Shown: positions 1 to 11,850, counted from the stretch's first letter. The stretch is 11,850 nucleotides of DNA from Atribacteraceae bacterium (GCA_035477455.1 DATIKP010000078.1:1-11850), one strand, 5' to 3'. The notes: generated by a model not told the origin, from the letters alone. Program-made: numbers and translations.

Positions 1-56
1 TGAGGCGTTGCTGATGGCAACGGGGCCTCGCTGAAATGAGTTTTTGCAGCAAAATC
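1..56 (+). repeat. Copy A of a 56-bp inverted repeat. It is the reverse complement of 6294..6349 at 54/56 identity (mismatches at positions 31 and 50). It contains the nested hairpin gaggc-ccc-gttgc-tgatg-gcaac-(g)gcctc and the 13-bp palindrome TTTTGCAGCAAAA at 42..54. It may extend left of the window.
   Basis: Reverse-complemented 6294..6349 by hand and aligned it to 1..56. Similarity is lost from position 57 onwards. Confidence 0.8.
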
Positions 57-100
57 AAAGATCTGTTATCTGAGCCCCCGCAAACCCCCGATCTCACCCG

Positions 101-460
101 TCAGTCCCCGGATTCACTTTCCTGGACGAGAGAGCCTGCGAGGTTCCGGTACAGATATTCCGCCAGCCCGATACCGTTGGCCCGGCTCGCCGACCTGGCA
201 ACCTCATCGACGAACATGTCTTTAAACCATCGCTCGTGCTTACTCAAAAAAGGGGATTCCGTGACCAGGACCGGCTGGATCGAACGCTTGAACATAAAAC
301 CGAGAAAGTACGATTCAAATTCACCGCAGGCTTTTTTCAATCCATCCTGAAGCGGCCCGCTTCCCTTCCTGTCGAGCACCAAAAGCGGTTCTTTGGGTAT
401 TCGATCGATTCGTAGCATGGTAAGCTCCTTCGTATTCCGGAGGGTATTATTACTCGACAA
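101..460 (-). CDS. flgJ: Flagellar rod-binding protein (FlgJ N-terminal rod-binding-domain-like, stand-alone, 119 aa)
   Basis: ORF 101..460(-). The motif ...GEFESYFLGFMFKRS... and the C-terminal ...ANGIGLAEYLYRNLAG... match the rod-binding family pattern (FEALFLqqMLKSMR ... GGLGLAdmL). It sits directly downstream of flgI with an 11-bp overlap, as in flgI-flgJ operons. No muramidase domain is present. Confidence 0.7.
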   Translation of the reverse strand: MSSNNTLRNTKELTMLRIDRIPKEPLLVLDRKGSGPLQDGLKKACGEFESYFLGFMFKRSIQPVLVTESPFLSKHERWFKDMFVDEVARSASRANGIGLAEYLYRNLAGSLVQESESGD

Positions 461-1568
461 TCAATTCCCCCTGGAGGGCGCCGGCTTTATTCAGCGCCTG
501 TAAAATAGCAATTAAATCCCGGGGACCGACCCCCAACGCATTCAAAGACATCACCAAATCGTCAATAGTCGTCGTACCCTCGATCCTGGACAGTCCCACT
601 TCTTCTTCCACGACCTCCACTTGCGTTTCCGGAACCACTACAGTTTCTCCGGGCGAAAAGGGCGGTGGCTGAGATACCAGAAAACGGGTTTGAATGGTCA
701 CGGTTAAATCCCCATGAGAGAGGGCCACCGGAAGAATCCGCACGTTCCCTCCGATGACCACCGTGCCGGTCCTCTCGTTCACCACGACCCGGGCGGGTAC
801 GTCAGGAGTAACCGGGATTTCCCCGATCAGCGCCATCAGGGACGATACCCGGTGCAGGTACTGGTCCGGTATGGTGATTTCAATCCGGTTGGCATCGAGG
901 GCTCGGGTCCGCCGACCCCCGATTTCATTGCTGATCGCCTGAGCGATCCGGGTGGCGGTGACAAAATCCGGGTTCTGTAACAACAGGGTAATCGTCCCCC
1001 GGGTCGGGTCATAAAATCTGGTGTCCACCGTTCGTTCGACAATCCCACCATTAGGAATCATGCCCACTGTCGGATGGTTACGTTGCACCTGGGCTCCGCC
1101 GCCGCCCGCGGCAAAACCACCGATGGAAAGCGGTCCTTGAGCGACCGCATAGACCTTTCCATCCACGGCTTTCAGCGGGGTCACCAGGAGGACGCCCCCC
1201 TGGAGAGTTTCGGAATCGCCCAGGGAGGAGACGCTTACATCAATGGTTTCCCCCGGCCGGATAAAGGGAGGAAGTTCGGCGGTCACGATCACCCCCGCAA
1301 CATTCCGTGACCGGATCTGATGTGGATCGACCGTGATCCCCAGTAGCTGGAGCATGTTCGCCAAGCTCTGATTGGTGAACAGACTGTTACGACTGTCCCC
1401 GGTCCCGGACAAACCCACCACCAGCCCGTACCCGATTAGCTGGTTCCCCCGTTCCCCCTCAAATCGGGTGATATCTTTGATCCGGACCGTTTCCGCGTTG
1501 GCGGTGAACGTGAGAAACAGGCTGATCACCAGAAGGAGAGAAGCTCTTCTAAGTGTATTGATCACCAT
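450..1568 (-). CDS. flgI: Flagellar P-ring protein FlgI (372 aa, N-terminal signal peptide)
   Basis: Full-length ORF. The N-terminus MVINTLRRASLLLVISLFLTFTANA is a signal peptide. It is followed by ...IKDITRFEGERGNQLIGYGLVVGLSGTGD..., and the C-terminal ...GELIVE is typical of FlgI. The ATG at 1568 has a G-rich SD just upstream (aaaggggtg). Confidence 0.93.
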   Translation of the reverse strand: MVINTLRRASLLLVISLFLTFTANAETVRIKDITRFEGERGNQLIGYGLVVGLSGTGDSRNSLFTNQSLANMLQLLGITVDPHQIRSRNVAGVIVTAELPPFIRPGETIDVSVSSLGDSETLQGGVLLVTPLKAVDGKVYAVAQGPLSIGGFAAGGGGAQVQRNHPTVGMIPNGGIVERTVDTRFYDPTRGTITLLLQNPDFVTATRIAQAISNEIGGRRTRALDANRIEITIPDQYLHRVSSLMALIGEIPVTPDVPARVVVNERTGTVVIGGNVRILPVALSHGDLTVTIQTRFLVSQPPPFSPGETVVVPETQVEVVEEEVGLSRIEGTTTIDDLVMSLNALGVGPRDLIAILQALNKAGALQGELIVE

Positions 1569-1615
1569 CGCACCCCTTTATCCTTTATCCTCTAACGGAC
1601 ACCGAACCGGTCTTC

Positions 1616-2224
1616 CTAAAAAAGGAAATCAAGAACGGATCCAAAAATGCCGTTCAATAGGCCGACCAAGCCACTGCGCTCCCTCGGCCGCAGAGTCCCA
1701 TCCAGTTTGATCACCGCATCGAGCACCTGGGTGGACAAAACCGAATTGTTCGCCGTAATGTCTCGGGGGCTGACTACCCCTTCAATGGTGAGGATTTCCC
1801 GCTGCTTGTTGAGGATCATCTCCTTGCTCCCCTTGATCCGGAGATTGCCGTTTTCCAGAACCTCGCTGACCTGGCAAGTAATCACCCCTCTCAGAGAAAA
1901 GTTCCGACTTTCCCCCCGTTGTGCCTGCCGGGAAGTCTCGCTGGATAAACCGGCAGGAGGAATGAAATCGAAGATCCCCGCTCCAGCCGCCAGGTTGATG
2001 TTGGTGCTCCGTCCCCCGCTGGATTGAGCATCACCGGAACCGGTTGTGTGCTCACTGACAATCACCATGATCGGATCCCCCGGACGCGAGGCTCTGAAAT
2101 CCGAGTAGGGATCCGCAAACCAGCCGTCATCGCTCCAAAGCGACTCCCCCCGGACCGGAAGGATCAGGCCACCGGCCAGAGTCGCACCGAGCACCAGGCT
2201 AAGTAATAACCGGTCATGTCTCAT
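1616..2224 (-). CDS. flgH: Flagellar L-ring protein FlgH (202 aa). It has no lipobox cysteine.
   Basis: Full ORF. The FlgH-like core GDPIMVIVSEHTTGSGDAQS...NLRIKGSKEMILNKQREILTIEGVVSPRDI is present. The start ATG overlaps the flgA stop (ATGA, 2221..2224). The signal peptide has no Cys; the only Cys in the protein is far downstream. Confidence 0.88.
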   Translation of the reverse strand: MRHDRLLLSLVLGATLAGGLILPVRGESLWSDDGWFADPYSDFRASRPGDPIMVIVSEHTTGSGDAQSSGGRSTNINLAAGAGIFDFIPPAGLSSETSRQAQRGESRNFSLRGVITCQVSEVLENGNLRIKGSKEMILNKQREILTIEGVVSPRDITANNSVLSTQVLDAVIKLDGTLRPRERSGLVGLLNGIFGSVLDFLF

Positions 2225-3246
2225 CGTATCTCCACCTCCACCAATCTTTCCCCAATGACTTGGGCCTGAACCCGTTTCCGGGATTCCGGATTCTCTACGA
2301 CAATGCTCTCTCCCAACGATCCGTTTCCCCGGGCACGGCCGGTGGCGGTCACGGTAACCAAGCCATTCCTGGCTACCATGGTTACCAAGTCCCCCCGCTC
2401 GATCAAGGTTTCCTTCTGAACCTTCTCCGGAGAGATTACTTCACCGGGACGCATAGCCCGTCGGACCTCAAGCCCGATGACCTCATTCAGAGAAGCGAAA
2501 CCCTGATCATTACCCGCGGACAACGCTTCCGGCAAGACCTGCACTTGGTCGGCGCCAATTACGTCACCCGGCCGGAGATGGTCTATGGTTCTGACGGTGT
2601 CCCGAAAAACCTTGAGGCCAAAGGTCACGCTTTCCCGCTGTTCGTAGCCTCCCGCTGCGCTCACGGTAAAGTGAGCGGTCCCCCGGCCCCACGGCTTAAG
2701 TCCGGAAGGAATGAAGAGTTGGAGGGTGCTCTCGGGAGGAACGGTCAGGTCCTCGGTGGCTCCCAGCGGCTGGATTTCCACCGCTTGGGCGAAGGGAAAG
2801 AGGCGTAAGAGTTCTTCTTCAATCATGGTGCTCATGGCTGACCAGGGGATAATCTCACCGGCAAAGACCACGCGAGAATACTCCGCTCCGGAAAAATGGA
2901 TAAAAGCGAGGCCGGGAATCCTTCTCGCCGCCACCCGGTCGAAGATTTCCTGGGGACGGATCATCCGGGCTTCCCCGGGAGCGGGGACATAACCCAAGTC
3001 GAGCCGGCGTAGTTCCCCCTCCCAGTAAACATCCGGATAAGAAATCTCCGCCACTTCCCCGAGAACGAGGCTCTCGGCCAGGAGCGTCACGTTCGGACGG
3101 AGAGCAACAGACAGGGTCAGGGCCCAGACCGGTCCTACCCAGCCCCCGAGAAAAAGCACAATACCGGCGAATAACCAACCCACTGCGTATTTCATCGCGC
3201 GCATCCGGTTACCGCTTGAGATTGTTCGAAATCTGGAGCATTTCAT
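2221..3246 (-). CDS. flgA: Flagellar P-ring assembly chaperone FlgA (SAF-domain C-terminus). The start is uncertain: ATG at 3246, 3204 or 3195.
   Basis: The C-terminal ...RGDLVTMVARNGLVTVTATGRARGNGSLGESIVVENPESRKRVQAQVIGERLVEVEI matches the FlgA/SAF pattern. The longest ORF overlaps flgG by 38 bp. The internal start at 3195 (MKYAVGWLFAGIVLFLGGWVGPVWA) gives a clean signal peptide and a 14-bp gap after the flgG stop. Confidence 0.85.
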   Translation of the reverse strand: MKCSRFRTISSGNRMRAMKYAVGWLFAGIVLFLGGWVGPVWALTLSVALRPNVTLLAESLVLGEVAEISYPDVYWEGELRRLDLGYVPAPGEARMIRPQEIFDRVAARRIPGLAFIHFSGAEYSRVVFAGEIIPWSAMSTMIEEELLRLFPFAQAVEIQPLGATEDLTVPPESTLQLFIPSGLKPWGRGTAHFTVSAAGGYEQRESVTFGLKVFRDTVRTIDHLRPGDVIGADQVQVLPEALSAGNDQGFASLNEVIGLEVRRAMRPGEVISPEKVQKETLIERGDLVTMVARNGLVTVTATGRARGNGSLGESIVVENPESRKRVQAQVIGERLVEVEIR

Positions 3247-3997
3247 CAGCTGTGGTTATAGCCTTGGCGTTGACTTCGTAGGCCCGCTGGGCACTGATCA
3301 TCCGCACCATCTCTTTGACTATCTGAACGTTGGACATCTCCAGAAAACCCTGTGCCAGGCTCCCAAAGCCAGCCAGGCCGGGTACCCCCATCTGTGGTTC
3401 TCCAGAGGAGGCGGTGGCCCGATAGAGGTTCCGCCCCAGGCTGGTCAGGCCGGCCGGATTAATGAAACGTACGAGTTCGATCACGCCGACTTCCTGGGGT
3501 TCGATTTCCCCGGGAATCTGGACGGACACGATCCCATCCTGCCCAACGGTTATCGATTCCGCCTCAGGGGGAACAGTAATCGGCGGTTCCAACAAAAACC
3601 CATCATTGGTCACCACCTGTCCCAGGGCGTCGAGTTTGAAAGAGCCGTCCCGGGAATAGGCGATTTCACCATCCGGCAGCAGAATCTGGAAAAAGCCGTT
3701 TCCTTCAATGACCAGATCAAGGGGGTTGCGGGTCTCATACATGTCTCCCTGAAAAAACATTTTCTGTACGGCCGCCGGGCGCGTACCCAGACCGACTTCA
3801 ATGCCTACCGGCACCTGGGTCGCTTCCGTGGTCGGAGCGCCGCTGACCCGAATGGTCTGATACATAATATCCTGAAAATCCACCCGGCTCTTTTTGAAGC
3901 CCGTTGTATTCACATTGGCGAGATTGTTGGCGATCACGTCGATATCCAGTTGTCTGGACATCATTCCGGTCGCCGCGGTCCACAAAGCCCGTATCAT
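3209..3997 (-). CDS. flgG: Flagellar basal-body distal rod protein FlgG (262 aa)
   Basis: N-terminal MIRALWTAATGMMSRQLDIDVIANNLANVNTTGFKKSRVDF and C-terminal ...VNAKAITTADEMLQISNNLKR are canonical for the rod/hook FlgG family. An SD ggggaggga lies 5 nt upstream of the ATG on the minus strand. Confidence 0.93.
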   Translation of the reverse strand: MIRALWTAATGMMSRQLDIDVIANNLANVNTTGFKKSRVDFQDIMYQTIRVSGAPTTEATQVPVGIEVGLGTRPAAVQKMFFQGDMYETRNPLDLVIEGNGFFQILLPDGEIAYSRDGSFKLDALGQVVTNDGFLLEPPITVPPEAESITVGQDGIVSVQIPGEIEPQEVGVIELVRFINPAGLTSLGRNLYRATASSGEPQMGVPGLAGFGSLAQGFLEMSNVQIVKEMVRMISAQRAYEVNAKAITTADEMLQISNNLKR

Positions 3998-4078
3998 GGA
4001 TACTCCCTCCCCCGTTCAGGCCTCCGCCGTGCGGTCCGGCCTGGTTATTCTCTCTGTCGATCGACGACGGACACTCTC

Positions 4079-4837
4079 TTAACGAAGCCGGGCGATATCG
4101 TTCACGGCCCGCTGTAAGGCCAAATCCTGGGACTGGATCGCCCGTTGCGCGGCTTCAAATTTACGCAGAGTCTCGATCATGGTCACCATAGCTTCAACAA
4201 CGTTCATATTCGAGCGTTCAAGCGAGCCCTGCACGACCCGAAAACCAACCGCCTCCCGAGGTTCAACCAGATCGTCAACCGGGAAAAAGTTATTGAGACC
4301 GCGCTTCACGAGGAGATTCCGATCGTCAAAATCGACTACCCGCAGTTGGTCGACCTCCTCATCATCGACCCGGATCCTCCCCTGGTCATCGACCAGGAAC
4401 GTTCCCCCCGGAGGAAGAACGATCTCCCCGGTTGTCCCCAATACCGGGAACCCATCCACGTTTACCAGGCGGCCATCGGTATCGAGGGCAAAATTCCCCG
4501 CCCGGGTATACCCCTCACCTTCCGGGGTGGCGACCACAAAAAACCCCCCTCCCTGCAGAGCGAAATCAAGATGATTTCCGGTAGTCTCGATCCGCCCTTG
4601 CGAAAAATCGGTCTGGTGTTCACTAATCAGCTGGGCCCCTATCGACAGACTTCCGATGGAGATCGGCGACTGCTCATCGGTAAACCGGGAGATCGCCCTT
4701 TCGTAAACCGCTTCCGCTCGCAAGAGATCCGCCTTGAACCCCGGTGTCTCGATATTTGCCAGGTTATTGGCCAGCACTCCCTGCTTGATTTCGAATACGT
4801 TCATTCCCGATGCAGCGGTATAAATTCCCCGGATCAC
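4079..4837 (-). CDS. flgF: Flagellar basal-body rod protein FlgF (FlgF/FlgG family). The start is called at GTG 4837 rather than at the ORF-track start 4933.
   Basis: From the GTG the protein begins VIRGIYTAASGMNVFEIKQGVLANNLANIETPGFKAD, the conserved FlgF N-terminus. A perfect SD AAAGGAGG lies 7 nt upstream of the GTG at 4835..4837 (minus strand). The extra 32 aa of the ORF-track model have no family resemblance. Confidence 0.85.
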   Translation of the reverse strand: MIRGIYTAASGMNVFEIKQGVLANNLANIETPGFKADLLRAEAVYERAISRFTDEQSPISIGSLSIGAQLISEHQTDFSQGRIETTGNHLDFALQGGGFFVVATPEGEGYTRAGNFALDTDGRLVNVDGFPVLGTTGEIVLPPGGTFLVDDQGRIRVDDEEVDQLRVVDFDDRNLLVKRGLNNFFPVDDLVEPREAVGFRVVQGSLERSNMNVVEAMVTMIETLRKFEAAQRAIQSQDLALQRAVNDIARLR

Positions 4838-5083
4838 TCGCTTGCCTCCTTTCTGGGTTATAACTGGACATGAAGTCAAGAATTCTCGTTCTGTTAGTCT
4901 CTGTTGGAAGGTATGGATAAATATACTTGCCAAAAATAAGAATCAAAACAGAGCCTGCCTTTTCAGAAAAACCATTACATACCATCCTCACCCTCTCCCT
5001 CCCCCCTCCTTACCACGGACTTCCCCCTGAACCAAATCTTCCATTGCCATCTCGACAAAGGGACAGGAAGAAACCGGGCGGTA

Positions 5084-5092
5084 TGATATAAT
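5084..5092 (+). promoter_or_regulatory. Extended -10 element TGaTATAAT, a candidate promoter for the divergent DUF3782-like gene
   Basis: tgatataat at 5084..5092 is a perfect TGnTATAAT match. It lies about 60 nt upstream of the ATG at 5151/5160. No clean -35 was found, but an extended -10 can work without one. Confidence 0.4.
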
Positions 5093-5159
5093 AGGTGCTG
5101 CAGAATATAGGCCTGATGCCCGCTCGCTGATCGTCCCGGCCGGAAGGGAGATGAAAAAC

Positions 5160-5837
5160 ATGCAAGAAGTGAAAGAAAAAGTCATTGATCTCGAAAAGAC
5201 CTTAAATGACTTCATCCTCCATACCAACCTCGGTTTTGCCAAGGTTCAGAATGCGCTCATCGAACAACGTTGGGCTCTGGACAAACTCAAGGAAGAGATG
5301 GTGGCTTACCGGGAACATTCGGCTCAGGAGATGAAAGAATTCAAGGAAGAGATGGTGGGCTCCCGCCGGGAACTCAACAAGATGTGGGGGGACCTGGCCA
5401 ACCGCCTGGGGACCGTGGCGGAAGACATCGTGGCTCCCAACCTACCGGTGATCGCCCGGCGGTATTTCGGCTGTGTCGGAGAACCGCTGACTCTGTATGT
5501 GCGCTCCTTCCGGTTCAAACGGAAAGACCGGTCCCAGCAACGGGAGTTCGATGTAATCGCCGAGTACGAAGAAATCGTGCTCTTCAACGAAACCAAGACC
5601 ACGTCCCGGCAAAGCTATATCGATGACTTTCTCGCCTTTCTCCCCCAACTCCCGGACTACTGGCCGGAGTTCACGGGAAAAAAGATCATCCCCATCTATG
5701 CCGCCCTGTATATCCCGGAAAACCAGGTGGCCTACGCCACCCAGCGGGGTCTTTACGTTTTGGCCCTGCGTGGAGAAACCATGGATCTCCTCAACTACCA
5801 TGCGGTCAAACCGGTCGAAGAACCACTGAGCGACTGA
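5160..5837 (+). CDS. Hypothetical protein with an N-terminal coiled-coil and a C-terminal PD-(D/E)XK-like nuclease fold. It resembles the DUF3782-type family. An alternative start is ATG 5151.
   Basis: Residues 1-75 are heptad-rich (KEKVIDLEKTLNDF...LDKLKEEMVAYREH...FKEEMVGSRRELNKMWG). Nucleotides tcaaggaagagatggtgg are duplicated at 5287..5304 and 5341..5358. The C-terminal part has ...REFDVIAEYEEIVLFNETKTT..., a D-x(12)-E-x-K arrangement. The KMWGDLANRLG...V pattern is what I remember of the Thermus/archaeal DUF3782 paralogs. The GGGAG SD is spaced 9 nt from ATG 5160. Confidence 0.65.
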   Translation: MQEVKEKVIDLEKTLNDFILHTNLGFAKVQNALIEQRWALDKLKEEMVAYREHSAQEMKEFKEEMVGSRRELNKMWGDLANRLGTVAEDIVAPNLPVIARRYFGCVGEPLTLYVRSFRFKRKDRSQQREFDVIAEYEEIVLFNETKTTSRQSYIDDFLAFLPQLPDYWPEFTGKKIIPIYAALYIPENQVAYATQRGLYVLALRGETMDLLNYHAVKPVEEPLSD

Positions 5838-6293
5838 GCGATCCTTTCGTTTATCCCACCCGCAACGTGACCGGGCGGGGTCCTGCCACTGGAACAACTT
5901 CCAAAAGAAGGGGGTCAACCGGATATAACCGATTTTTTGCATGATCCTTCCTCTATCCATCGCTTCCCACCTTCTTCGCCTGCGGCGAAGATTTCTGCCA
6001 GTGCCGCCCGGTACCGGGGGCACATAGGGACCGTTCTTCTGTTCCAGAGGGACGTGGTCGTTTTTCCGGTAGGGCGGGCGGCGGGCCTAAGGAGATCCCC
6101 CGCCTTTACCCTTTACCCTACGCCCAGGAAGGCCCGGCTCCAGTCCGGAACCCCATCTCCCCGGGAGAGGTGCGTAACTTCTCGCTGGCTGGTATCCTTT
6201 TCATGGGTGGATGGCCCAACTCTTTAGATTTCCCTCAAATGTACTGTAGCACAACGGCCATCCACTTTTTGTTTTTACAGGAATTGTAAGACA

Positions 6294-6349
6294 GATTTTA
6301 CTGCAAAAACTCATTTCACCGAGGCCCCGTTGCCATCAGCAACGCCTCA
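6294..6349 (-). repeat. Copy B of the 56-bp inverted repeat; see copy A at 1..56
   Basis: Manual reverse-complement alignment gives 54/56 identity. It lies at the junction between GC-rich (left) and AT-rich (right) DNA. Confidence 0.8.
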
Positions 6350-6401
6350 TCTGGCATTTTCTTGCACGCATCAATGACCACGTCCGGTTGCAGTGCTGCT
6401 G

Positions 6402-6428
6402 AAAAGGCCATCCTTGGCCTTTTTACTT
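6402..6428. terminator. Possible bidirectional intrinsic terminator: aaaaGGCCA-tcct-TGGCCtttt followed by tac
   Basis: A 9-bp perfect stem (core GGCCA/TGGCC) with a 4-nt loop. Both strands have T-runs after the stem. It is short, so this is a weak call. It lies downstream of the DUF3782-like gene and of repeat copy B. Confidence 0.3.
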
Positions 6429-6488
6429 CGAAAATGCGGTGATTTCGGCGGCTGATTCAGGCAGCTCAGGCCCAGGCTTCCTTCGTTC

Positions 6489-6502
6489 TTTTGCAGCAAA
6501 AT
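6489..6502 (+). repeat. Third, partial direct copy of the repeat core: TTTTGCAGCAAAAT, a 14-bp exact match to 42..55 that includes the 13-bp palindrome
   Basis: Exact 14-mer shared with 42..55. The following bases are loosely similar (aatcaa(a)gat...gatct). Confidence 0.45.
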
Positions 6503-7277
6503 TACTTATTGCAGTAGAATCAAGATATGATCTAAACGGATCAAGAGAAAAGTCTTAACAAAATATCTTTTCTATGTTATCTTTGAATTAAGTGGTAAGC
6601 TTTTGGAGTTTTTTGATGGCTACAACCACAACAAAAGGTTGAAGAAAATAGATACCTCGCCTTTACAGGCGGGAAGTGCCCGCTAGATTAAATTATAAAA
6701 CACAGCGGAATACCTAAAAGAAACCAAAGATATAGTCTTACAACGTATCGTTATCTAACAATTATAAATGAATACCATATCAATCACCGGGATTTTTGTG
6801 CGAACCGGTTGTATTATGCGGTTTTTTATGCCGTCAGTGCCGCGTTGACCAACCGGAACCAGCACTAGCGGAAAACTTTAGAATCCGGGTTGCATTTCAG
6901 CGAGAATTTGTTAAAACTAATTTATTCTCCTCTTATGGCGGAATTATACGACGCATTACTTTGTGACCGTGAAGAAGCCGATACATGGTTTATTCGGAAT
7001 TCGATCCAAAAATTTTGCAGGAGGAATCGACTCAATTTAAAGAGTTCCTTAATGTTTTTCTTTTCAAGAGTCAGTACAAAAAGAAGAGCATTCAAAAAAA
7101 ATATTTGTAAGAGGTGAATTTAAGCCTCCGGTATGTTTATAGTGGATAACGGGGAAAAGGAGAACATTGATCGCCGTTCCATGACTACTTCTCTCTTGTT
7201 GACTTGATCATTAATTTTAGGGGGCCAGTCAGATGATGGGTCAAAACTACTAGCGGGTGAGACGGTGAAGGAGCAAA

Positions 7278-10271
7278 ATGCGTAAGGGAGAGAGTTTCAG
7301 CGATATTCTCATTCAAGCCCTGCCGGTCTTCTTCGTCGCTATCGATGTCGATGGCAAGACGATGATGATGAATGAGGCGATGCGAAACGCGCTCGGCTAT
7401 ACCGTTAATGAGGTGTTAGGAAAGGATTATCTGACGAATTTCGTCCCCCAGAGTGACCGCGGATCGCTCTCCCAAATATTCGAAAAACTGGCAGGTTCGC
7501 GCGAGCCGATGGTAAACGAGAATCGTGTGCTGACCAGGGACGGCCGAGAACTTCTCGTCGAATGGCATGGCCGGCCGATCTTCACCGAAGAAGGCGAATA
7601 CGACTTCTTCTACGGGATAGGGATCGACATCACCGAACGGAAGCGGAACCAGAGGAAGATCGCGCACCTTAACCTTGCACTGCGCGCCATCAGTAACGTC
7701 AACCAGTTCATCGTCACCGAGAAGGAGCGCGATCGACTGGTACAGGGTGTCTGCGACAGGCTCAGCGAGGCGCACGGCTATCATACCGCCTGGATCGGTC
7801 TACTCAATGAAGAAAAAGGCCTTATTACGGTAGGACAGTCCCCCTCAAGCCAGGAGTCCATAGCGCCGACCGCCCATCTGCTGCGCGGTCGGTTGCCGAT
7901 CTGCGCCCAGAAGGCACTGGCGCAACCTGGAGTCCAGGTAAGCGCAGAGCCACATGCAGAGTGTGCTGGCTGTTCTCTGTCCGGCACGCATCGTGGTCGG
8001 GGAGTGATGGCCATCCGGTTGGAACATGCGGGAAAGGTCTACGGAATGCTCACTGCGTCCATCCCCGCCGATTTCATTTTCGATAAGGAAGAGTACGAAC
8101 TATTCGCTGAAGTCGCGCTGGACATCGCGTTTGCCCTGAGCAACATCGAGCTGGAAGCTAAGCGCCAGCAGGCTGAGGAAGCCCTCACCCGCAAGGTGCA
8201 AGAGCTGGATGCCCTTAACGCAGCCTCGCAGGTGGTGAACGCCTCTCTCGATCTGGATCAGGTGTTGGGAAAGATCGTGTCGCTGGCGAAAGAGGCGGTG
8301 GGCGCCGATTACACCAGCATCCTGCTGGTCGATGAAAAAAGCGGCACGGTGCGTAGCTTTGAGAATTTTCCAGATGTACCGTCAATCGAGGATCGCGCTC
8401 AGGAGCATGGCCTTACCCGTCTGGTCATGGGCACAGGACAGATGGTGATCGTCGATGAGATCGGTGAGGACGGTACGATTGTCCCGGAACTGGGTGCCGG
8501 GGTGCCGCGCCTGGTCAATCCGCATATGGTGGGGACAAATATCAAGTCGGTAGCCTATCTGCCGCTAACCGGCAAGGCCGGTTCGATTGGAGTCCTCCAC
8601 CTGCGCAACCTGCGGCCGCAAGCATTTCGTGGTCAAGAAACGCTGCTGACCACCTTTGCCAATCAGGCGGCTATTGCCGTAGAGAACGCACGGCTGTACG
8701 AGACGGTCTCCCGGGAACTCACCGAGCGCAAGCGAGCGGAGGAGGCGTTGCGGAAGAGCGAAAGACGTCTTCGGACAATGAACAGGGTGCTTGCGAAGCT
8801 ATCGCGAAGTATGAAGATAAAAAACGGCGATCCGGGCGCCTTCCTGAAGGAGATTACCGAGGTTGCGGCCCGCACGCTCGAGGTTGAACGGGCCAGCATA
8901 TGGTTATACGATGAAAAAGGTATAAAGATTCAGTGCCTGGACCAGTATGAACTGGGTGCCGGAAGACATGCCCAGGGCTTCGAGCTGGTTCAGGCAGACT
9001 ATCCCGCTTACTTTCGGGCCTTGGAAGAGGAGCGCGCTATCGTGGCCGACAATGTACTCACCGACCCCCGAACCAGAGAACTTTCGGAGTCTTACCTTTT
9101 TCCTCACGGTATTACCTCCATACTCGATGCCCCGCTTCGGTTGGGCGGCCGAACGGTAGGGGTCATCGCTCATGAACATGTCGGGCCCGCTCGCCGGTGG
9201 ACGCCGGATGAGCAGAATTTCGCCGGATCGCTGGCGGATTTCGTCTCGCTGGCCATGGAAGCGCAGGAGCGCTGGCAAGCGGAGGAAGCGCTGGCGGAGT
9301 CGCAGTGGAAGATAGAGAACCTGAACAAGATAACCCGCCGCTTGGCGGTTTGCGCAACGGAAGATGAAGCCTATCGATTGACTATGGAGGCGGCGGAACG
9401 AATCCTGGGGTTCTTGCTCTGCTTCCTGGATATCGTGGAAGGAGACCGGATGGTGGTGAAAGCGACCTCATCGGAATTGCCTCCCGGGACGGCCGTGGAG
9501 AGGTCTCTGGCGGAGGATGAACTGGCGGCCAGGACCTACCATACCGGTAAAACGATTGTCTTTGGTAGTCCGGATGAGGTTCCCGAAGCCAGGCCGGCAA
9601 GGAAGGATTTCCGCTCGGGGATCTGCGCGCCGATTGGCGATATCGGGGTTTTTCAGGTCGTTGCCACGGATGTCGGTGCCTTTACCGAAGATGATGTACA
9701 CCGGCTTGAGCTTCTGCTCGGACAAACCGCCGAAGCGATCAAGCGGATTCGTCTGCAGAACGAACTGAGGGAACAGGCCATCCGCGATCCGTTGACCGGG
9801 GTCTACAACCGCCGCTACTTCACCCAGACAATCGAGCAGGAAGTCTCCCGCGCTGTGCGGCATAAGCGGCTGATCGCCTTCCTGATGATCGACGTCAACC
9901 GGTTTAAGGAGATAAACGATCGCTTCGGCCATCAGACCGGTGATCGCGTTCTGCAAGCGGTGGGAAGACTTCTTGCTCAGCAGGTGCGCGAGGAAGACAT
10001 CGTGGTCCGCTACGGCGGTGATGAATTCCTGATTGTTCTGCCCGAGACTGATGGCGGAGAGGTAGACACTGTAAAAAAGCGGATCGGTACAGCGATTGCC
10101 CGGATTAATGAAACGAGCAAGTTGATCGACTTTCCGGTTACCCTGTCGCTTGGTTGTGCTTACTGGAATCCGGGTGGCTCGGAATCGATCGAGGAAGTTC
10201 TGGCCTGGGCGGACCAGCGGATGTATGGGGAGAAACGGAAACAGGGTTCAGGCCATAGGTCAAAACCATGA
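7278..10271 (+). CDS. Multidomain diguanylate cyclase: PAS, Cys-containing GAF-like domain, three GAF domains and GGDEF (997 aa)
   Basis: SD GAAGGAG lies 4-5 nt before the ATG. The N-terminal PAS region covers about aa 8-125. A GAF-like domain of about aa 140-290 carries C159, C209 and the CAGC motif (C229/C232, nt 7962..7973). Classical GAF cores lie at about aa 310-480, 510-670 and 690-820, separated by coiled-coil linkers. The C-terminal GGDEF domain starts near aa 836 (RDPLTGVYNRRYF). The motif R-Y-G-G-D-E-F is at nt 10008..10028, and the I-site RxxD (REED) is at nt 9987..9998. Confidence 0.93.
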   Translation: MRKGESFSDILIQALPVFFVAIDVDGKTMMMNEAMRNALGYTVNEVLGKDYLTNFVPQSDRGSLSQIFEKLAGSREPMVNENRVLTRDGRELLVEWHGRPIFTEEGEYDFFYGIGIDITERKRNQRKIAHLNLALRAISNVNQFIVTEKERDRLVQGVCDRLSEAHGYHTAWIGLLNEEKGLITVGQSPSSQESIAPTAHLLRGRLPICAQKALAQPGVQVSAEPHAECAGCSLSGTHRGRGVMAIRLEHAGKVYGMLTASIPADFIFDKEEYELFAEVALDIAFALSNIELEAKRQQAEEALTRKVQELDALNAASQVVNASLDLDQVLGKIVSLAKEAVGADYTSILLVDEKSGTVRSFENFPDVPSIEDRAQEHGLTRLVMGTGQMVIVDEIGEDGTIVPELGAGVPRLVNPHMVGTNIKSVAYLPLTGKAGSIGVLHLRNLRPQAFRGQETLLTTFANQAAIAVENARLYETVSRELTERKRAEEALRKSERRLRTMNRVLAKLSRSMKIKNGDPGAFLKEITEVAARTLEVERASIWLYDEKGIKIQCLDQYELGAGRHAQGFELVQADYPAYFRALEEERAIVADNVLTDPRTRELSESYLFPHGITSILDAPLRLGGRTVGVIAHEHVGPARRWTPDEQNFAGSLADFVSLAMEAQERWQAEEALAESQWKIENLNKITRRLAVCATEDEAYRLTMEAAERILGFLLCFLDIVEGDRMVVKATSSELPPGTAVERSLAEDELAARTYHTGKTIVFGSPDEVPEARPARKDFRSGICAPIGDIGVFQVVATDVGAFTEDDVHRLELLLGQTAEAIKRIRLQNELREQAIRDPLTGVYNRRYFTQTIEQEVSRAVRHKRLIAFLMIDVNRFKEINDRFGHQTGDRVLQAVGRLLAQQVREEDIVVRYGGDEFLIVLPETDGGEVDTVKKRIGTAIARINETSKLIDFPVTLSLGCAYWNPGGSESIEEVLAWADQRMYGEKRKQGSGHRSKP

Positions 10272-10393
10272 GCGCTATTCTCATAAAAGTCCTGTCGGTA
10301 CCTTCGTCGCCGATCATGTCGATGGCAAGATGATAACGAGCTTACAGGCGCTTCGGCTGGCGCAGGCCAATAGGCGAGTGCACCAGCCATTAT

Positions 10394-10579
10394 TCATCCT
10401 GCATCTTTCGTCATTTTTATATTCTTTTTCCTTTGCTTTACGCATTCGGTTAAAAGGTATTCAATTTGCCCGTTGATGGAACGAAAGTCATCTTCCGCCC
10501 AAGCCGCCAATTCCTTCCAAAGAGAAAGCGACAACCGCAATAACAACTGCTTTTTATCTCTGTCGTCGTTGGGCATCAT
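10394..10579 (-). CDS. Ribbon-helix-helix (Arc/CopG/MetJ-like) DNA-binding protein, about 61 aa
   Basis: ..[41 protein letters not shown].. fits beta-strand plus two helices (compare RLPeELheaLkeaAeaegRSlNaEIvarLe). The ORF-track start at 10582 is TTG; the first ATG is at 10579. It lies 17 nt after the SPFH stop codon on the same strand. Confidence 0.65.
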
Positions 10580-10596
10580 CAAGGTTCTTCGTTTAA

Positions 10597-11616
10597 CTAT
10601 GAATACAAAGTACCACTGTTGACAATCGGCTGGACGTCCCGATTTCCGCAGAGGACCACGAGTAGATTACTGACCATTGCCGCCTTGCGTTCTTCGTCGA
10701 GCTTTACGATGCCGTTCTCACTCAGTTTGGTCAGTGCCATTTCCACCATACCCACCGCGCCTTCCACGATCAACTGCCGGGCATCGACTATGGCTGAAGC
10801 CTGCTGTCTTTGGAGCATGGCGGCGGCGATTTCCGGTGCGTAGGAAAGATGGGTAATGCGGGCCTCCATAACTTCCAGTCCGGCCATCTCCACTTTTTCC
10901 TGAATTTCTACCCGGAGTTTTTCCGCTACCTCCTGACTGCTGCCGCGTAAAGACATTTCACTGTCTTGGTCAGGTGTGTCGTAGGGATAGTTCCGAACTA
11001 TGTTACGCAGCGCGGAGTCACACTGTATGGAAAGAAACTCCTTGAAATTGTCGACATTAAATACCGCCTTGGCTGTGTTAACTACTTTCCAGATTACAAC
11101 CACCCCTATAATGATCGGGTTGCCCAGTTTGTCGTTTATTTTTTGCTGGTCATTGTTTAGCGTAATGGCTTTCAGCGAGATGACCTTACTCGGTGCGGAC
11201 AGGCGCTGAGCCTTGTCCAGTCCGGCCGACAGAATAGCGGTAGCAATGCCAGTCGTGGAAGCGGCCGGATTCAGGGCGCTGACAAAGGGATTGACAAAGA
11301 AAAACCCTTCGCGCTTAAGCGATCCGTAGTATTTTCCAAAAAGGGTCAAGACCAGCGCCTCATTAGGACGCAGTACTTTCAACCCGGCAAAGATGATGGA
11401 TCCGACAAATAGATAAGCAAGCCCTGCAACGATCAAAATGGTGCCAAGTGCGTTATCCCCGCCGGCTTCAAATCTCATAATCCCTCTAACCATTGCCGCG
11501 ACTGCGGCTCCCATGAGGATTATATTGAGGAGCAAAATGGGCATGCCGGCCATGGCTGGCGGGCGGATTTCCTCGTGATGCACCAGGCCTTCACGTACTA
11601 TGGCTTTTTCAGACAT
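10597..11616 (-). CDS. SPFH / band-7 (stomatin-prohibitin-flotillin-HflKC) domain membrane protein, about 339 aa. The start is called at ATG 11616; the ORF-track start 11622 is TTG.
   Basis: Two N-terminal hydrophobic helices ([38 protein letters not shown]) are followed by [30 protein letters not shown]... and a long SPFH-like core. Helical C-terminal segments follow ([26 protein letters not shown]...). The SD AGGAGA lies 9 nt upstream of ATG 11616. Confidence 0.85.
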
Positions 11617-11801
11617 AATCAATCATCTCCTTACAATATGTATTTGATATTATAATAATATTATTTATATAGTATGATGGAGCCACATAATTGTCAAGTG
11701 TTTATTGCACAGGATGTAATTGCTGCGTACTCCGGAGCAAATCGCCCGGTGTTCCGGCCGAAGCCGGCCGCCTCCGGGTTTATGAGCAGCGTACGCTATC
11801 C

Positions 11802-11850
11802 ATGCACAAAATTAAAGAAGTCCTGCGCTTAAAGTATGATGGGGGGGTTA
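11802..11850 (+). mobile_element. N-terminal 16 codons of a probable IS21-family IstA-like transposase (MHKIKEVLRLKYDGGL...), truncated by the window end
   Basis: Hand-translated from ATG 11802. The pattern M-x-KI+E+LRL-x4-GLS is the N-terminal HTH start I associate with IS21-family IstA proteins. Only 48 nt are visible. Confidence 0.4.

What the first reader, a model, noticed from the sequence alone, without database searches (positions are those of the whole stretch)
1..6349. A 56-bp inverted repeat brackets the whole flagellar rod/ring operon and the divergent DUF3782-like gene
Positions 1..56 and 6294..6349 are reverse complements with two mismatches. Relative to each outward-reading transcript (the flg operon on the minus strand, the nuclease-like gene on the plus strand), the repeat sits downstream of the last gene in the same orientation. 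Each copy holds a nested hairpin (gaggc/gcctc around gttgc/gcaac) and a 13-bp palindrome, TTTTGC-A-GCAAAA. A third palindrome-containing fragment is at 6489..6502. Copy A touches the window edge, so its true length is unknown. Candidate explanations are: (1) a multicopy REP/MITE-like element that works as a transcription-end or mRNA-stability structure; (2) terminal inverted repeats of a roughly 6.3-kb mobilised or invertible segment carrying flagellar genes; (3) footprints of the duplication that introduced the nuclease-like paralog. A palindromic core in all three copies also suggests a dimeric DNA-binding protein site.
Basis: seen in the sequence. Interest (0 to 1): 0.7.

Follow-up and report, generated by a model that had tools for sequence, protein, structure and literature searches.

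The report
Two copies of a small foldback repeat
The 56-base inverted repeat is real, but it is most likely two oppositely oriented copies of a small non-coding mobile-type repeat (one complete at about 228 bp, one cut off by the contig end), not a device that frames or flips the flagellar operon.

Summary
In detail: positions 1-56 and 6294-6349 are reverse complements at 54/56, where chance predicts none. The window is a whole 11,850-bp contig of an Atribacteraceae MAG, so copy A is cut by a contig end.

Copy B is not a free-standing 56-mer. It is the left arm of a unit of about 228 bp (6294-6521):
- The unit has imperfect terminal inverted repeats (19/25; 1 of 2000 shuffles does as well).
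- The two arms are about 71% inverse-identical.
- The whole unit folds into one long hairpin (z = -5.9) with an A-tract/GC-stem/T-tract hairpin at its apex.
- It has no intact ORF.

Two spurious ORFs from JGI metagenomes (P0241, P0242) match its translation at 68-70% across in-frame stop codons. Similarity among all four copies ends at the same tip.

No recombinase, no target-site duplication and no link to the DUF8196 gene were found. Inversion or mobilisation of the flagellar block is not supported, although that block has lost the neighbours it has in related Atribacterota. The copy number in the source genome could not be measured. Ordinary; low interest.

The parts
1..56 (-). Copy A: outer 56 nt of one arm of the repeat, read on the minus strand as GATTTTGCTGCAAAAACTCATTTCAGC + hairpin. 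It is cut by the contig end, so the rest of this copy is unseen.
   Evidence: 54/56 match to 6294-6349. The window is the whole 11,850-bp contig.
6294..6521 (+). Complete MITE-like foldback unit of about 228 bp (tips uncertain by about 10 nt). It consists of a left arm, an apex hairpin, and a right arm with a doubled terminal motif.
   Evidence: Terminal 25-mer 6294-6318 has an inverted partner at 6497-6521, 19/25; 1 of 2000 shuffles and 1 of 1608 window controls do as well. The whole unit folds as one hairpin at -86.8 kcal/mol, z -5.9 on the plus strand and z -4.3 on the minus strand. Arms are 58/82 identical in inverse orientation, alignment score 11 against 3.0 +/- 1.6 for shuffles. No ORF with homologues; stops in all reverse frames.
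6294..6349 (+). It is the outer part of the left arm of the unit.
44..56 (+). Terminal motif TTGCAGCAAAATC at the tip of copy A.
   Evidence: Pattern TTGCAGYARAATC gives 6 matches at up to 2 mismatches against 0.69 expected. Five of the six lie in the repeats: the four tip motifs plus the palindromic minus-strand reading at 40-52.
6294..6306 (-). Terminal motif TTGCAGTAAAATC at the left tip of the unit.
6491..6503 (+). Inner motif copy TTGCAGCAAAATT in the right arm.
   Evidence: It is the position that aligns with the left tip in the arm-to-arm alignment.
6509..6521 (+). Outer motif copy TTGCAGTAGAATC at the right tip of the unit.
2..29 (-). Nested 10-bp hairpin with a 3-nt bulge (GAGGC-CCC-GTTGC-CATCA-GCAAC-GCCTC) in copy A.
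6321..6348 (+). The same hairpin in copy B. In the fold of the whole unit this stretch pairs instead with 6452-6470 of the right arm.
6400..6425 (.). Apex hairpin AAAAGGCCA-tcct-TGGCCTTTT, with an A-tract on one side and a T-tract on the other. It has the shape of a bidirectional intrinsic terminator.
   Evidence: -15.0 kcal/mol, z -4.4 on the plus strand; -11.9 kcal/mol, z -2.4 on the minus strand. The pattern scan does not call it.
101..418 (-). Context, not part of the element: the rod-binding FlgJ-like gene, last gene of flgF-G-A-H-I-J. Copy A begins 44 nt after its stop.
   Evidence: Pfam Rod-binding 1.8e-09. NCBIfam FlgJ models. AAGGAG lies 6 nt before the ATG at 418 (read from the sequence).

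Best explanation
The repeat is a small, non-coding, dispersed foldback element of the MITE type. A complete copy of about 228 bp sits at 6294-6521, in a gene-poor stretch full of decayed genes. A second copy, in the opposite orientation, sits just after flgJ and is cut after 56 nt by the contig end. That second copy could be another MITE copy or the end of the autonomous parent element. The apparent 'bracketing' of the flagellar rod/ring operon follows from two insertions that happen to point in opposite directions.

Shown here: the repeat itself, the terminal inverted repeats, the four-fold terminal motif, the two-fold pseudo-symmetry with its long-hairpin fold, the lack of coding capacity, homologous copies in other metagenomes that end at the same tip, and the contig ending inside copy A.

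Inferred, not shown:
- The element is moved in trans by a transposase encoded elsewhere, which binds the TTGCAGYARAATC tips (one site at the left end, two at the right).
- It is multicopy in this genome, and that is why the assembler stopped in copy A.
- When transcribed from a neighbouring gene, its long hairpin and the A-tract/GC-stem/T-tract apex hairpin can end or stabilise transcripts in either direction. The copy after flgJ may therefore uncouple flgFGAHIJ from the downstream flagellar genes.
For: - The repeat is far beyond chance.
- The left-tip 25-mer has an inverted partner 200 nt downstream, 19/25; 1 of 2000 shuffles and 1 of 1608 window controls do as well.
- Motif TTGCAGYARAATC occurs at all three visible tips plus once more inside the right arm, against 0.69 matches expected at up to 2 mismatches.
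- 6290-6525 folds as a single long hairpin, z -5.9 and z -4.3 on the two strands. The arms are 58/82 identical in inverse orientation.
- No credible ORF: the only frame open through the core ends in stops in both copies. No Rfam family matches.
- An exhaustive phmmer search found one cluster, P0241/P0242, on 2+2 JGI contigs. tblastn aligns these proteins to window 6423-6292 at 67-70% across two in-frame stops, and to copy A at 2-55. All four copies diverge right after ...CAGCAAAAT. That is DNA-level homology with a shared boundary.
- The window is a complete contig, so copy A is at an assembly break.
- The surroundings are decayed or mobile-looking: a frameshifted HEPN-like remnant, and the flg block has lost the neighbours it has in relatives.
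Against: - Copy number in the source genome is unknown. The hairpin pattern gave only one unrelated chance hit in each of the genome and metagenome collections and none in the viral one. The source MAG itself is evidently not in those collections, so this says little about copy number.
- No target-site duplication flanks 6294-6521: GTAAGACA on the left against AAGATATG on the right, read.
- No parent transposase was found. The IS6-family lead fails on the GG tips and the fully conserved TGT.
- The six-frame composite protein search found nothing, although that search was probably diluted by its design.
- The DNA of the JGI homologues could not be fetched, so their ends, their TIRs and any compensatory changes rest on protein-level inference only.
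- Independent Logan contigs from the same run break at 502, 5316, 6654 and 10693 with no repeat there. Assembly breaks in this sample therefore do not always mean repeats.
Confidence: 0.6

Rival explanations
1. A non-mobile, host-maintained structured 3' module of the REP/ERIC type. It would be transcribed at the ends of operons and would act as a long double-stranded RNA hairpin that stops transcription or blocks 3' exonucleases. It would have spread by duplication or gene conversion rather than transposition.
For: Both copies lie downstream of, and in the same orientation to, an outward-reading gene. The fold signal is very strong on both strands. The apex hairpin has terminator shape. No target-site duplication and no transposase were seen.
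Against: Copy B starts 456 nt after the nearest gene end, and a terminator-like site already lies at 6032-6054. The 56-mer hairpin has no U-tract. Tips marked by a repeated 13-nt motif, doubled at one end, are typical of transposase-binding ends rather than RNA modules. Related Atribacterota have no such element after flgJ.
Confidence: 0.15
2. The two arms are the functional ends of a 6.3-kb unit. Either it is an invertible segment flipped by site-specific or homologous recombination between the arms, or it is a composite transposon carrying flgFGAHIJ and the DUF8196 gene.
For: The arms are inverted and 96% identical. The flgF-J block has lost both neighbours seen in relatives: tatD upstream and the yvyF-like gene overlapping flgJ downstream. 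The motif has a palindromic core.
Against: There is no recombinase or transposase gene in or beside the segment. Copy B has its own inverted partner 200 nt away and is a self-contained unit. Re-inverting 57-6293 would place flgJ next to a HEPN-like remnant and a GGDEF gene, not next to yvyF/flgM, so it would not restore the ancestral order. Only 30 nt of exact identity is a poor substrate for RecA. Inversion would not change expression of either outward-reading unit in any obvious way.
Confidence: 0.05
3. The repeats are decayed copies of a real small protein gene, the P0241/P0242 family of 82-88 aa, read on the strand opposite to flgJ. The conserved sequence would be its 3' half plus its 3' flank.
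For: The ORF is open for 82-88 codons in the JGI copies. One of the two A/B mismatches is synonymous in this frame, CGC/CGG. P0241/P0242 are 67-70% identical to the window's translation.
Against: Similarity continues in the same frame past the stop codons of the window copies, NEFLQQN against NELLQQN/NEFFQQN. That is expected for DNA-level conservation, not protein-level conservation. In the window the start codon lies inside the apex hairpin. No Pfam or PDB family matches, and only weak NCBIfam hits (E 0.026-0.11) appeared. Only one cluster was found among 1.84 billion representatives.
Confidence: 0.08
4. The first 56 nt of the contig are an assembly artefact, a spurious extension or chimeric join copied from 6294-6349.
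For: Copy A lies exactly at a contig end. The terminal 30 nt are identical to copy B, which is what a k=31 graph would leave at a repeat boundary (inference). No independent contig covering 1-501 could be retrieved.
Against: The two mismatches at positions 31 and 50 mean the sequence was not simply copied from copy B. The junction with unique flgJ-flanking sequence is clean, and the tip coincides with the element boundary defined independently by P0241/P0242.
Confidence: 0.05
5. The repeat is a footprint of the duplication or insertion that brought in the nuclease-like (DUF8196) gene.
For: DUF8196 genes occur in many copies in some genomes (Thioploca, Jettenia, Kuenenia names), and one lies inside the bracketed segment.
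Against: The closest homologue with context (L007) shows no similarity outside the coding region and no motif. Copy A follows flgJ, not a DUF8196 gene. Copy B is separated from the gene by 456 nt of unrelated sequence.
Confidence: 0.03

Closest known systems
Bacterial MITEs (for example Correia elements of Neisseria, RUP of Streptococcus pneumoniae, Nezha of cyanobacteria). The comparison rests on my own knowledge of these families.
   Same: Size of 100-400 bp, terminal inverted repeats, no coding capacity, ability to fold into one long hairpin, intergenic location, more than one copy, and possible terminator or RNA-processing side effects on neighbouring genes.
   Different: No target-site duplication is visible, no parent IS has been identified, and the copy number in the genome is unknown. 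The right end carries two tandem copies of the tip motif and the left end only one. There is no sequence similarity to any named MITE: no hit in plasmids and no Rfam family.
ERIC/REP-type intergenic repeats of enterobacteria (own knowledge)
   Same: Imperfect palindromes in transcribed intergenic regions, often after the last gene of an operon, with effects on mRNA stability or termination.
   Different: REPs are 20-40 nt and come in hundreds of copies with a RAYT transposase. ERIC is about 127 bp. This unit is 228 bp with defined tip motifs. RAYT association and copy number could not be tested.
IS6/IS26-family ends and their MITEs. PMC7986276 gives 15-20 bp IRs with GG tips and cTGTt and caaa motifs, and reports MITEs of 227 and 336 bp.
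   Same: The tip GATTCTACTGCAAT resembles GGTTCTGTTGCAAA (10 of the first 14 bases, by my own comparison). The caaa motif is present. The unit length of 228 bp is like the reported 227-bp IS6 MITE. IS6 elements typically flank segments as pairs.
   Different: The tips are GA, not GG. The fully conserved TGT reads TAC or TGC here. There is no 8-bp target duplication and no IS6 transposase in the window (together with the sequence).
DNA-invertase (Hin/Gin) or tyrosine-recombinase invertible switches (own knowledge)
   Same: Inverted repeats flank a segment next to flagellar genes.
   Different: There is no recombinase gene. The arms are far longer than the 26-bp hix/gix sites and do not resemble them. 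The segment carries whole operons reading outward, not a promoter.

Membership tests
MITE (miniature inverted-repeat transposable element) | Small size, below about 500 bp | tested here: met
   The unit 6294-6521 is 228 bp, bounded by tip motifs.
MITE | Terminal inverted repeats | tested here: met
   19/25 between 6294-6318 and 6497-6521; 1 of 2000 shuffles and 1 of 1608 window controls do as well. The arms overall are 58/82 identical in inverse orientation.
MITE | No transposase or other coding capacity | tested here: met
   ORFs are 46 codons or shorter, with stops in every reverse frame. There are no family hits.
MITE | Many dispersed copies with unrelated flanks in one genome | tested here: inconclusive
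   There are two copies with unrelated flanks in 11.85 kb, and related copies on 2+2 JGI contigs with different flanks. The rest of the source genome could not be searched, because the scans do not contain it.
MITE | Target-site duplication flanking the element | tested here: not met
   The flanks GTAAGACA and AAGATATG share no direct repeat adjacent to the tips (sequence). The tips are uncertain by about 10 nt, so a short 2-4 bp duplication cannot be excluded.
MITE | An autonomous IS with the same ends exists | not testable with these tools
   No transposase in the window carries these ends. Copy A runs off the contig.
IS6/IS26 family (as parent) | GG dinucleotide at the tips; cTGTt with TGT fully conserved; caaa motif (PMC7986276) | tested here: not met
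   The tips read GATTTTACTGCAAAA, GATTTTGCTGCAAAA and GATTCTACTGCAATA. They start GA, not GG, and carry TAC or TGC in place of TGT. Only caaa is present (together).
IS6/IS26 family (as parent) | 8-bp target duplication | tested here: not met
   See the flanks above.
REP / BIME | A 20-40 nt palindromic unit, in hundreds of copies, with an associated RAYT (TnpA_REP) gene | tested here: inconclusive
   The unit is 228 bp, not 20-40 nt. Copy number and RAYT presence are not testable.
Intrinsic (Rho-independent) terminator, as a reading of the 56-mer hairpin | GC-rich stem immediately followed by a U-tract | tested here: not met
   The hairpin 6321-6348 is followed by ATCTGGCATTTTC. The scan does not call either copy. 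The apex hairpin 6400-6425 does have this shape.
Site-specific invertible segment | A recombinase gene within or adjacent, and short recombination sites as inverted repeats | tested here: not met
   Genes between and beside the arms are flgF/G/A/H/I/J, DUF8196, GGDEF and Band7. None is a recombinase.
Known RNA families (Rfam 15) | A covariance-model match at or near the gathering score | tested here: not met
   No hit at gathering score in the whole window. Only E 7-9 noise appears in 6150-7300.

The most novel reading that the evidence does not exclude
The two inverted copies are not bystanders. Recombination between them, or transposition using their outer tips as a composite unit, moved or flips the 6.2-kb flgFGAHIJ + DUF8196 block. 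That would explain why this block alone has lost both of the neighbours (tatD upstream, the yvyF-like gene and flgM downstream) that are conserved in other Atribacterota. It would be a case of a core flagellar rod/ring operon carried on, or switched by, a MITE-bounded segment.
Probability: 0.06. Interest if true: 0.6.

Novelty: new member of a known kind. Interest (0 to 1): 0.2.

Why it matters
The practical value is mainly for annotation and assembly. The result explains why this contig ends where it does. It warns that the flagellar cluster of this Atribacteraceae MAG is split by a repeat right after flgJ. It also identifies two IMG 'hypothetical proteins' (P0241, P0242) as probable translations of the same non-coding repeat. 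If the element proves abundant in Atribacterota, a phylum with few cultured members and no described MITEs in the searched literature, it would be a useful marker of genome plasticity and a possible source of terminator or RNA-hairpin effects on neighbouring operons. It does not at present point to a new mechanism.

Tried and rejected
- **Pattern scans.** I scanned for the hairpin pattern GAGGCN3GTTGCN5GCAACGCCTC. The genome and metagenome collections gave one hit each. The metagenome hit lies in GC-rich sequence with nothing in common beyond the pattern; neither locus shares any other sequence with the window, so I treat both as chance. The viral contigs gave none.
- **Exact-protein look-ups to reach sequence left of position 1.** Look-ups of FlgI, FlgJ-like at 105 and 119 aa, the 228-aa and 225-aa forms of the DUF8196 protein, the 31-aa ORF, and a guessed cut product all failed. 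Only two internal Logan contigs of SRR9289417 were found, matching window 502-5316 and about 6654-10693.
- **Composite six-frame protein query of the element.** Nothing scored at E <= 10. The result is probably a false negative caused by word-index dilution, because exhaustive phmmer with one frame did find P0241.
- **Transposase C-terminus idea** ('...EALLMATGPR*' as the end of an IS gene). No family, PDB or NCBIfam support. The weak NCBIfam hit to an O-acetylhomoserine enzyme model (E 0.026-0.086) was not reproduced in Pfam or the PDB, so I dropped it.
- **IS6-family parent.** Rejected on the tip features.
- **Sigma-54 promoter reading** of TGGCATTTTCTTGCA after copy B. The GG-GC spacing is one base short of the consensus (read from the sequence, own knowledge).
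- **Other readings** (CodY box, attC, dif, hix/gix, group II intron domain V, IS200/IS605 ends). Each was considered from memory and dropped for lack of fit.
- **Structured RNA in 5838-6293.** z is only -1.2 on either strand.
- **Element conserved next to DUF8196 homologues or in related flagellar loci.** No.
- **blastn of the unit against plasmids.** No match.
- **Literature.** No paper mentions SRR9289417 or MITEs in Atribacterota.

Full report

Yes. The repeat finder reports arms 1-56 and 6294-6349 as by far the longest inverted repeat in the window: 56 nt, 96% complementary, 6237 nt apart. The next best pair is 26 nt at 73%. The 28-nt hairpin core occurs exactly twice and never in 200 shuffles. 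Read on the strand of the upstream gene, both copies begin GATTTT and end GCCTCA. They differ at two positions.

The nested hairpin folds at -13.4 to -17.8 kcal/mol, z about -3.3. TTTTGCAGCAAAA is exact at 42-54 and at 6489-6501, and carries one mismatch in copy B.

**2. Where the window comes from, and the genes around the repeat**

The 225-aa protein and FlgI of the window are 100% identical to NCBI proteins HSV31353.1 and HSV31348.1 of a 'MAG TPA: Atribacteraceae bacterium'. Their only contig is 11,850 bp long. The window is therefore a whole contig, and position 1 is an assembly end. Two Logan contigs of run SRR9289417 carry exact copies of the window's FlgG and GGDEF proteins; the first aligns at 100% to window 502-5316, and the second corresponds by coordinates to about 6654-10693.

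Genes in the window (with starts refined):
- Minus strand: flgF 4079-4837, flgG 3209-3997, flgA 2221-3195, flgH 1616-2224, flgI 450-1568, and a rod-binding FlgJ-like gene 101-418.
- Plus strand: a DUF8196 (PF26618) protein 5160-5837, and a PAS-GAF-GGDEF protein 7278-10271.
- Minus strand: a Band-7 protein 10597-11622.

The nearest FlgI relatives are Atribacterota at 71-75% identity, so the flagellar genes are not a binning error. In two such relatives the gene order is metG, tRNA-binding protein, tatD, flgF-G-A-H-I-J, a 135-aa zinc-ribbon gene that overlaps the end of flgJ, then flgM-N-K-L, fliW and csrA. In the window neither tatD nor the zinc-ribbon gene is present. A divergent DUF8196 gene lies upstream of flgF. 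Downstream of flgJ there are 44 nt, then copy A, then the contig end.

**3. What copy B really is**

Copy B is not a stand-alone 56-mer.

- **Terminal inverted repeat.** The first 25 nt of copy B have an inverted partner at 6497-6521 (19/25). Only 1 of 2000 dinucleotide shuffles, and 1 of 1608 control 25-mers from the window, do as well.
- **Tip motif.** TTGCAGYARAATC occurs at 44-56 (+), 6294-6306 (-), 6491-6503 (+) and 6509-6521 (+). Up to two mismatches give 6 matches against 0.69 expected.
- **Two-fold symmetry.** The left arm aligns with the reverse complement of the right arm at 58/82, score 11 against 3.0 +/- 1.6 for shuffles.
- **Fold.** 6290-6525 folds into one long hairpin of -86.8 kcal/mol, z -5.9 on the plus strand and z -4.3 on the minus strand. 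In that fold the local 'nested hairpin' is replaced by pairing with the right arm.
- **Apex.** At the apex sits AAAAGGCCA-tcct-TGGCCTTTT (6400-6425; -15 kcal/mol, z -4.4). It has the shape of a bidirectional intrinsic terminator.
- **No coding capacity or RNA family.** The unit has no ORF longer than 46 codons and no Rfam match.

**4. Copies elsewhere**

On the strand opposite to flgJ one frame reads ...PDVVIDACKKMPDEALLMATGPR*, and it stops in both copies. An exhaustive phmmer search with this 45-aa frame against 1.84 billion representatives returned a single hit, P0241 (82 aa, E 5.6e-05, 68% identity). Its 90% cluster also holds P0242 (88 aa). Each was seen on two JGI contigs, up to 57 kb long.

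tblastn aligns P0242 to window 6423-6292 at 70% over 44 codons, running straight through two in-frame stop codons of the window. It also aligns to copy A at 2-55. Conservation that ignores stop codons is DNA-level conservation.

All four sequences (copy A, copy B, P0241, P0242) agree up to ...CAGCAAAAT (QQN) and are unrelated after it. That places the element's tip where the repeat in the window ends. P0241 and P0242 have no Pfam or PDB relatives, and their weak NCBIfam hit was not reproduced. I read them as spurious ORFs called across related copies of the element.

**5. Best explanation**

The anatomy is that of a MITE-like foldback repeat: a small unit, tip motifs in inverted orientation, two-fold pseudo-symmetry, no coding capacity, at least two copies with unrelated flanks here and more elsewhere, and a contig that stops inside one copy. 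The 'bracketing' of the flagellar operon follows from two copies lying in opposite orientation.

The following steps are inferred, not shown:
- mobilisation in trans by a transposase that binds the tips;
- multicopy status in this genome as the cause of the assembly break;
- terminator or RNA-hairpin effects on neighbouring transcripts, in particular uncoupling of flgFGAHIJ from the downstream flagellar genes.

Weak points:
- No target-site duplication is visible.
- No parent IS has been found.
- The genomic copy number is unknown.
- Logan contig breaks in this sample also occur where there is no repeat.

**6. Rivals**

- **Host-maintained REP/ERIC-like RNA module.** This is the main alternative. 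It shares the structural evidence but fits the tip motifs less well, and copy B lies 456 nt from the nearest gene end.
- **Invertible or composite-transposon reading.** It has no recombinase. Copy B is self-contained. Re-inverting the segment would not restore the ancestral gene order. Broken synteny on both sides of flgF-J keeps it from being excluded outright.
- **Decayed small gene.** This is unlikely, because conservation runs past the stops.
- **Assembly artefact.** This is unlikely, because of the two mismatches and because the boundary coincides with the one defined independently by P0241/P0242.
- **Link to the DUF8196 gene.** Not supported.

**7. Comparison with known families**

The element works like a bacterial MITE (Correia, RUP and Nezha as examples, from my own knowledge). 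It meets the tests of size, TIRs and non-coding status. It fails the target-duplication test and is inconclusive on copy number.

Its tips resemble IS6-family ends (GGTTCTGTTGCAAA), and that family has a 227-bp MITE. However, the defining GG tips and the conserved TGT are not met (PMC7986276), so I do not assign it to IS6.

It is not a REP in the strict sense (wrong size) and not a canonical terminator (the 56-mer hairpin has no U-tract).

**8. Verdict**

This is a new member of a known kind, a previously undescribed MITE-like repeat in an Atribacteraceae MAG, of ordinary biological interest.

Noticed in passing
window 6770-7095 (+): A frameshifted remnant of a HEPN-domain gene. Pieces in two frames read ...NRLYYAVFYAVSAALT..., ...AFQREFVKTNLFS..., ...LYDALLCDREEAD..., and ...EFDPKILQEESTQFKEFLNVF.... 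A stitched translation hits Pfam HEPN at E 0.006 and 17 bits, below the 22-bit cut-off. The 1-kb stretch 6228-7277 therefore holds a repeat plus a pseudogene and no intact gene.
   Followed up: partly
window 11802-11850 (+), with possible end sequences from about 11691 (TGTCAAGTG...): The right end of the contig stops 16 codons into an ORF, MHKIKEVLRLKYDGGV. From memory this looks like the N-terminus of IS21-family IstA transposases. If so, both ends of the contig stop in repeats. An HMM scan of the short peptide gave nothing, so this is unverified.
   Followed up: partly
window 1-5150 compared with L005 3129-8039 and L006 6866-11794: Other Atribacterota keep the order metG, tRNA-binding protein, tatD, flgFGAHIJ, a 135-aa zinc-ribbon (yvyF-like) gene overlapping the end of flgJ, then flgMNKL, fliW and csrA. 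In this MAG both junctions of the flgF-J block are broken: there is no tatD upstream and no overlapping zinc-ribbon gene downstream.
   Followed up: yes
window 5160-5837 (+): The 'nuclease-like' gene belongs to DUF8196 (PF26618, from precomputed Pfam on its homologues); the local Pfam copy gave no hit. Its C-terminal half carries a D...E-x-K pattern (FDVIA...NETK) typical of PD-(D/E)XK nucleases (read from the sequence). Among the named homologues, several distinct proteins come from Thioploca and Jettenia MAGs, which suggests more than one copy per genome.
   Followed up: partly
window 5838-6293: This 456-nt stretch has 58-65% G+C, sits between the DUF8196 stop and copy B, and has no credible ORF, no family hit and no fold signal (z -1.2 on both strands). 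Its origin is unexplained. The 96-aa ORF at 5937-6227 is Pro/Arg/Ser-rich and has no homologues in Pfam or NCBIfam.
   Followed up: partly
P0241 and P0242 (JGI/IMG 'hypothetical proteins', 82 and 88 aa): These two database proteins appear to be translations of non-coding copies of the same repeat family. They align to the window across stop codons. They are probably false gene calls.
   Followed up: partly
window 5284-5311 and 5338-5365: An in-frame 54-nt-spaced direct repeat (28 nt, 86%) lies inside the coiled-coil N-terminal half of the DUF8196 gene, giving (K/E)EEMV(A/G).... The first copy lies just inside the Logan contig end at 5316.
   Followed up: no
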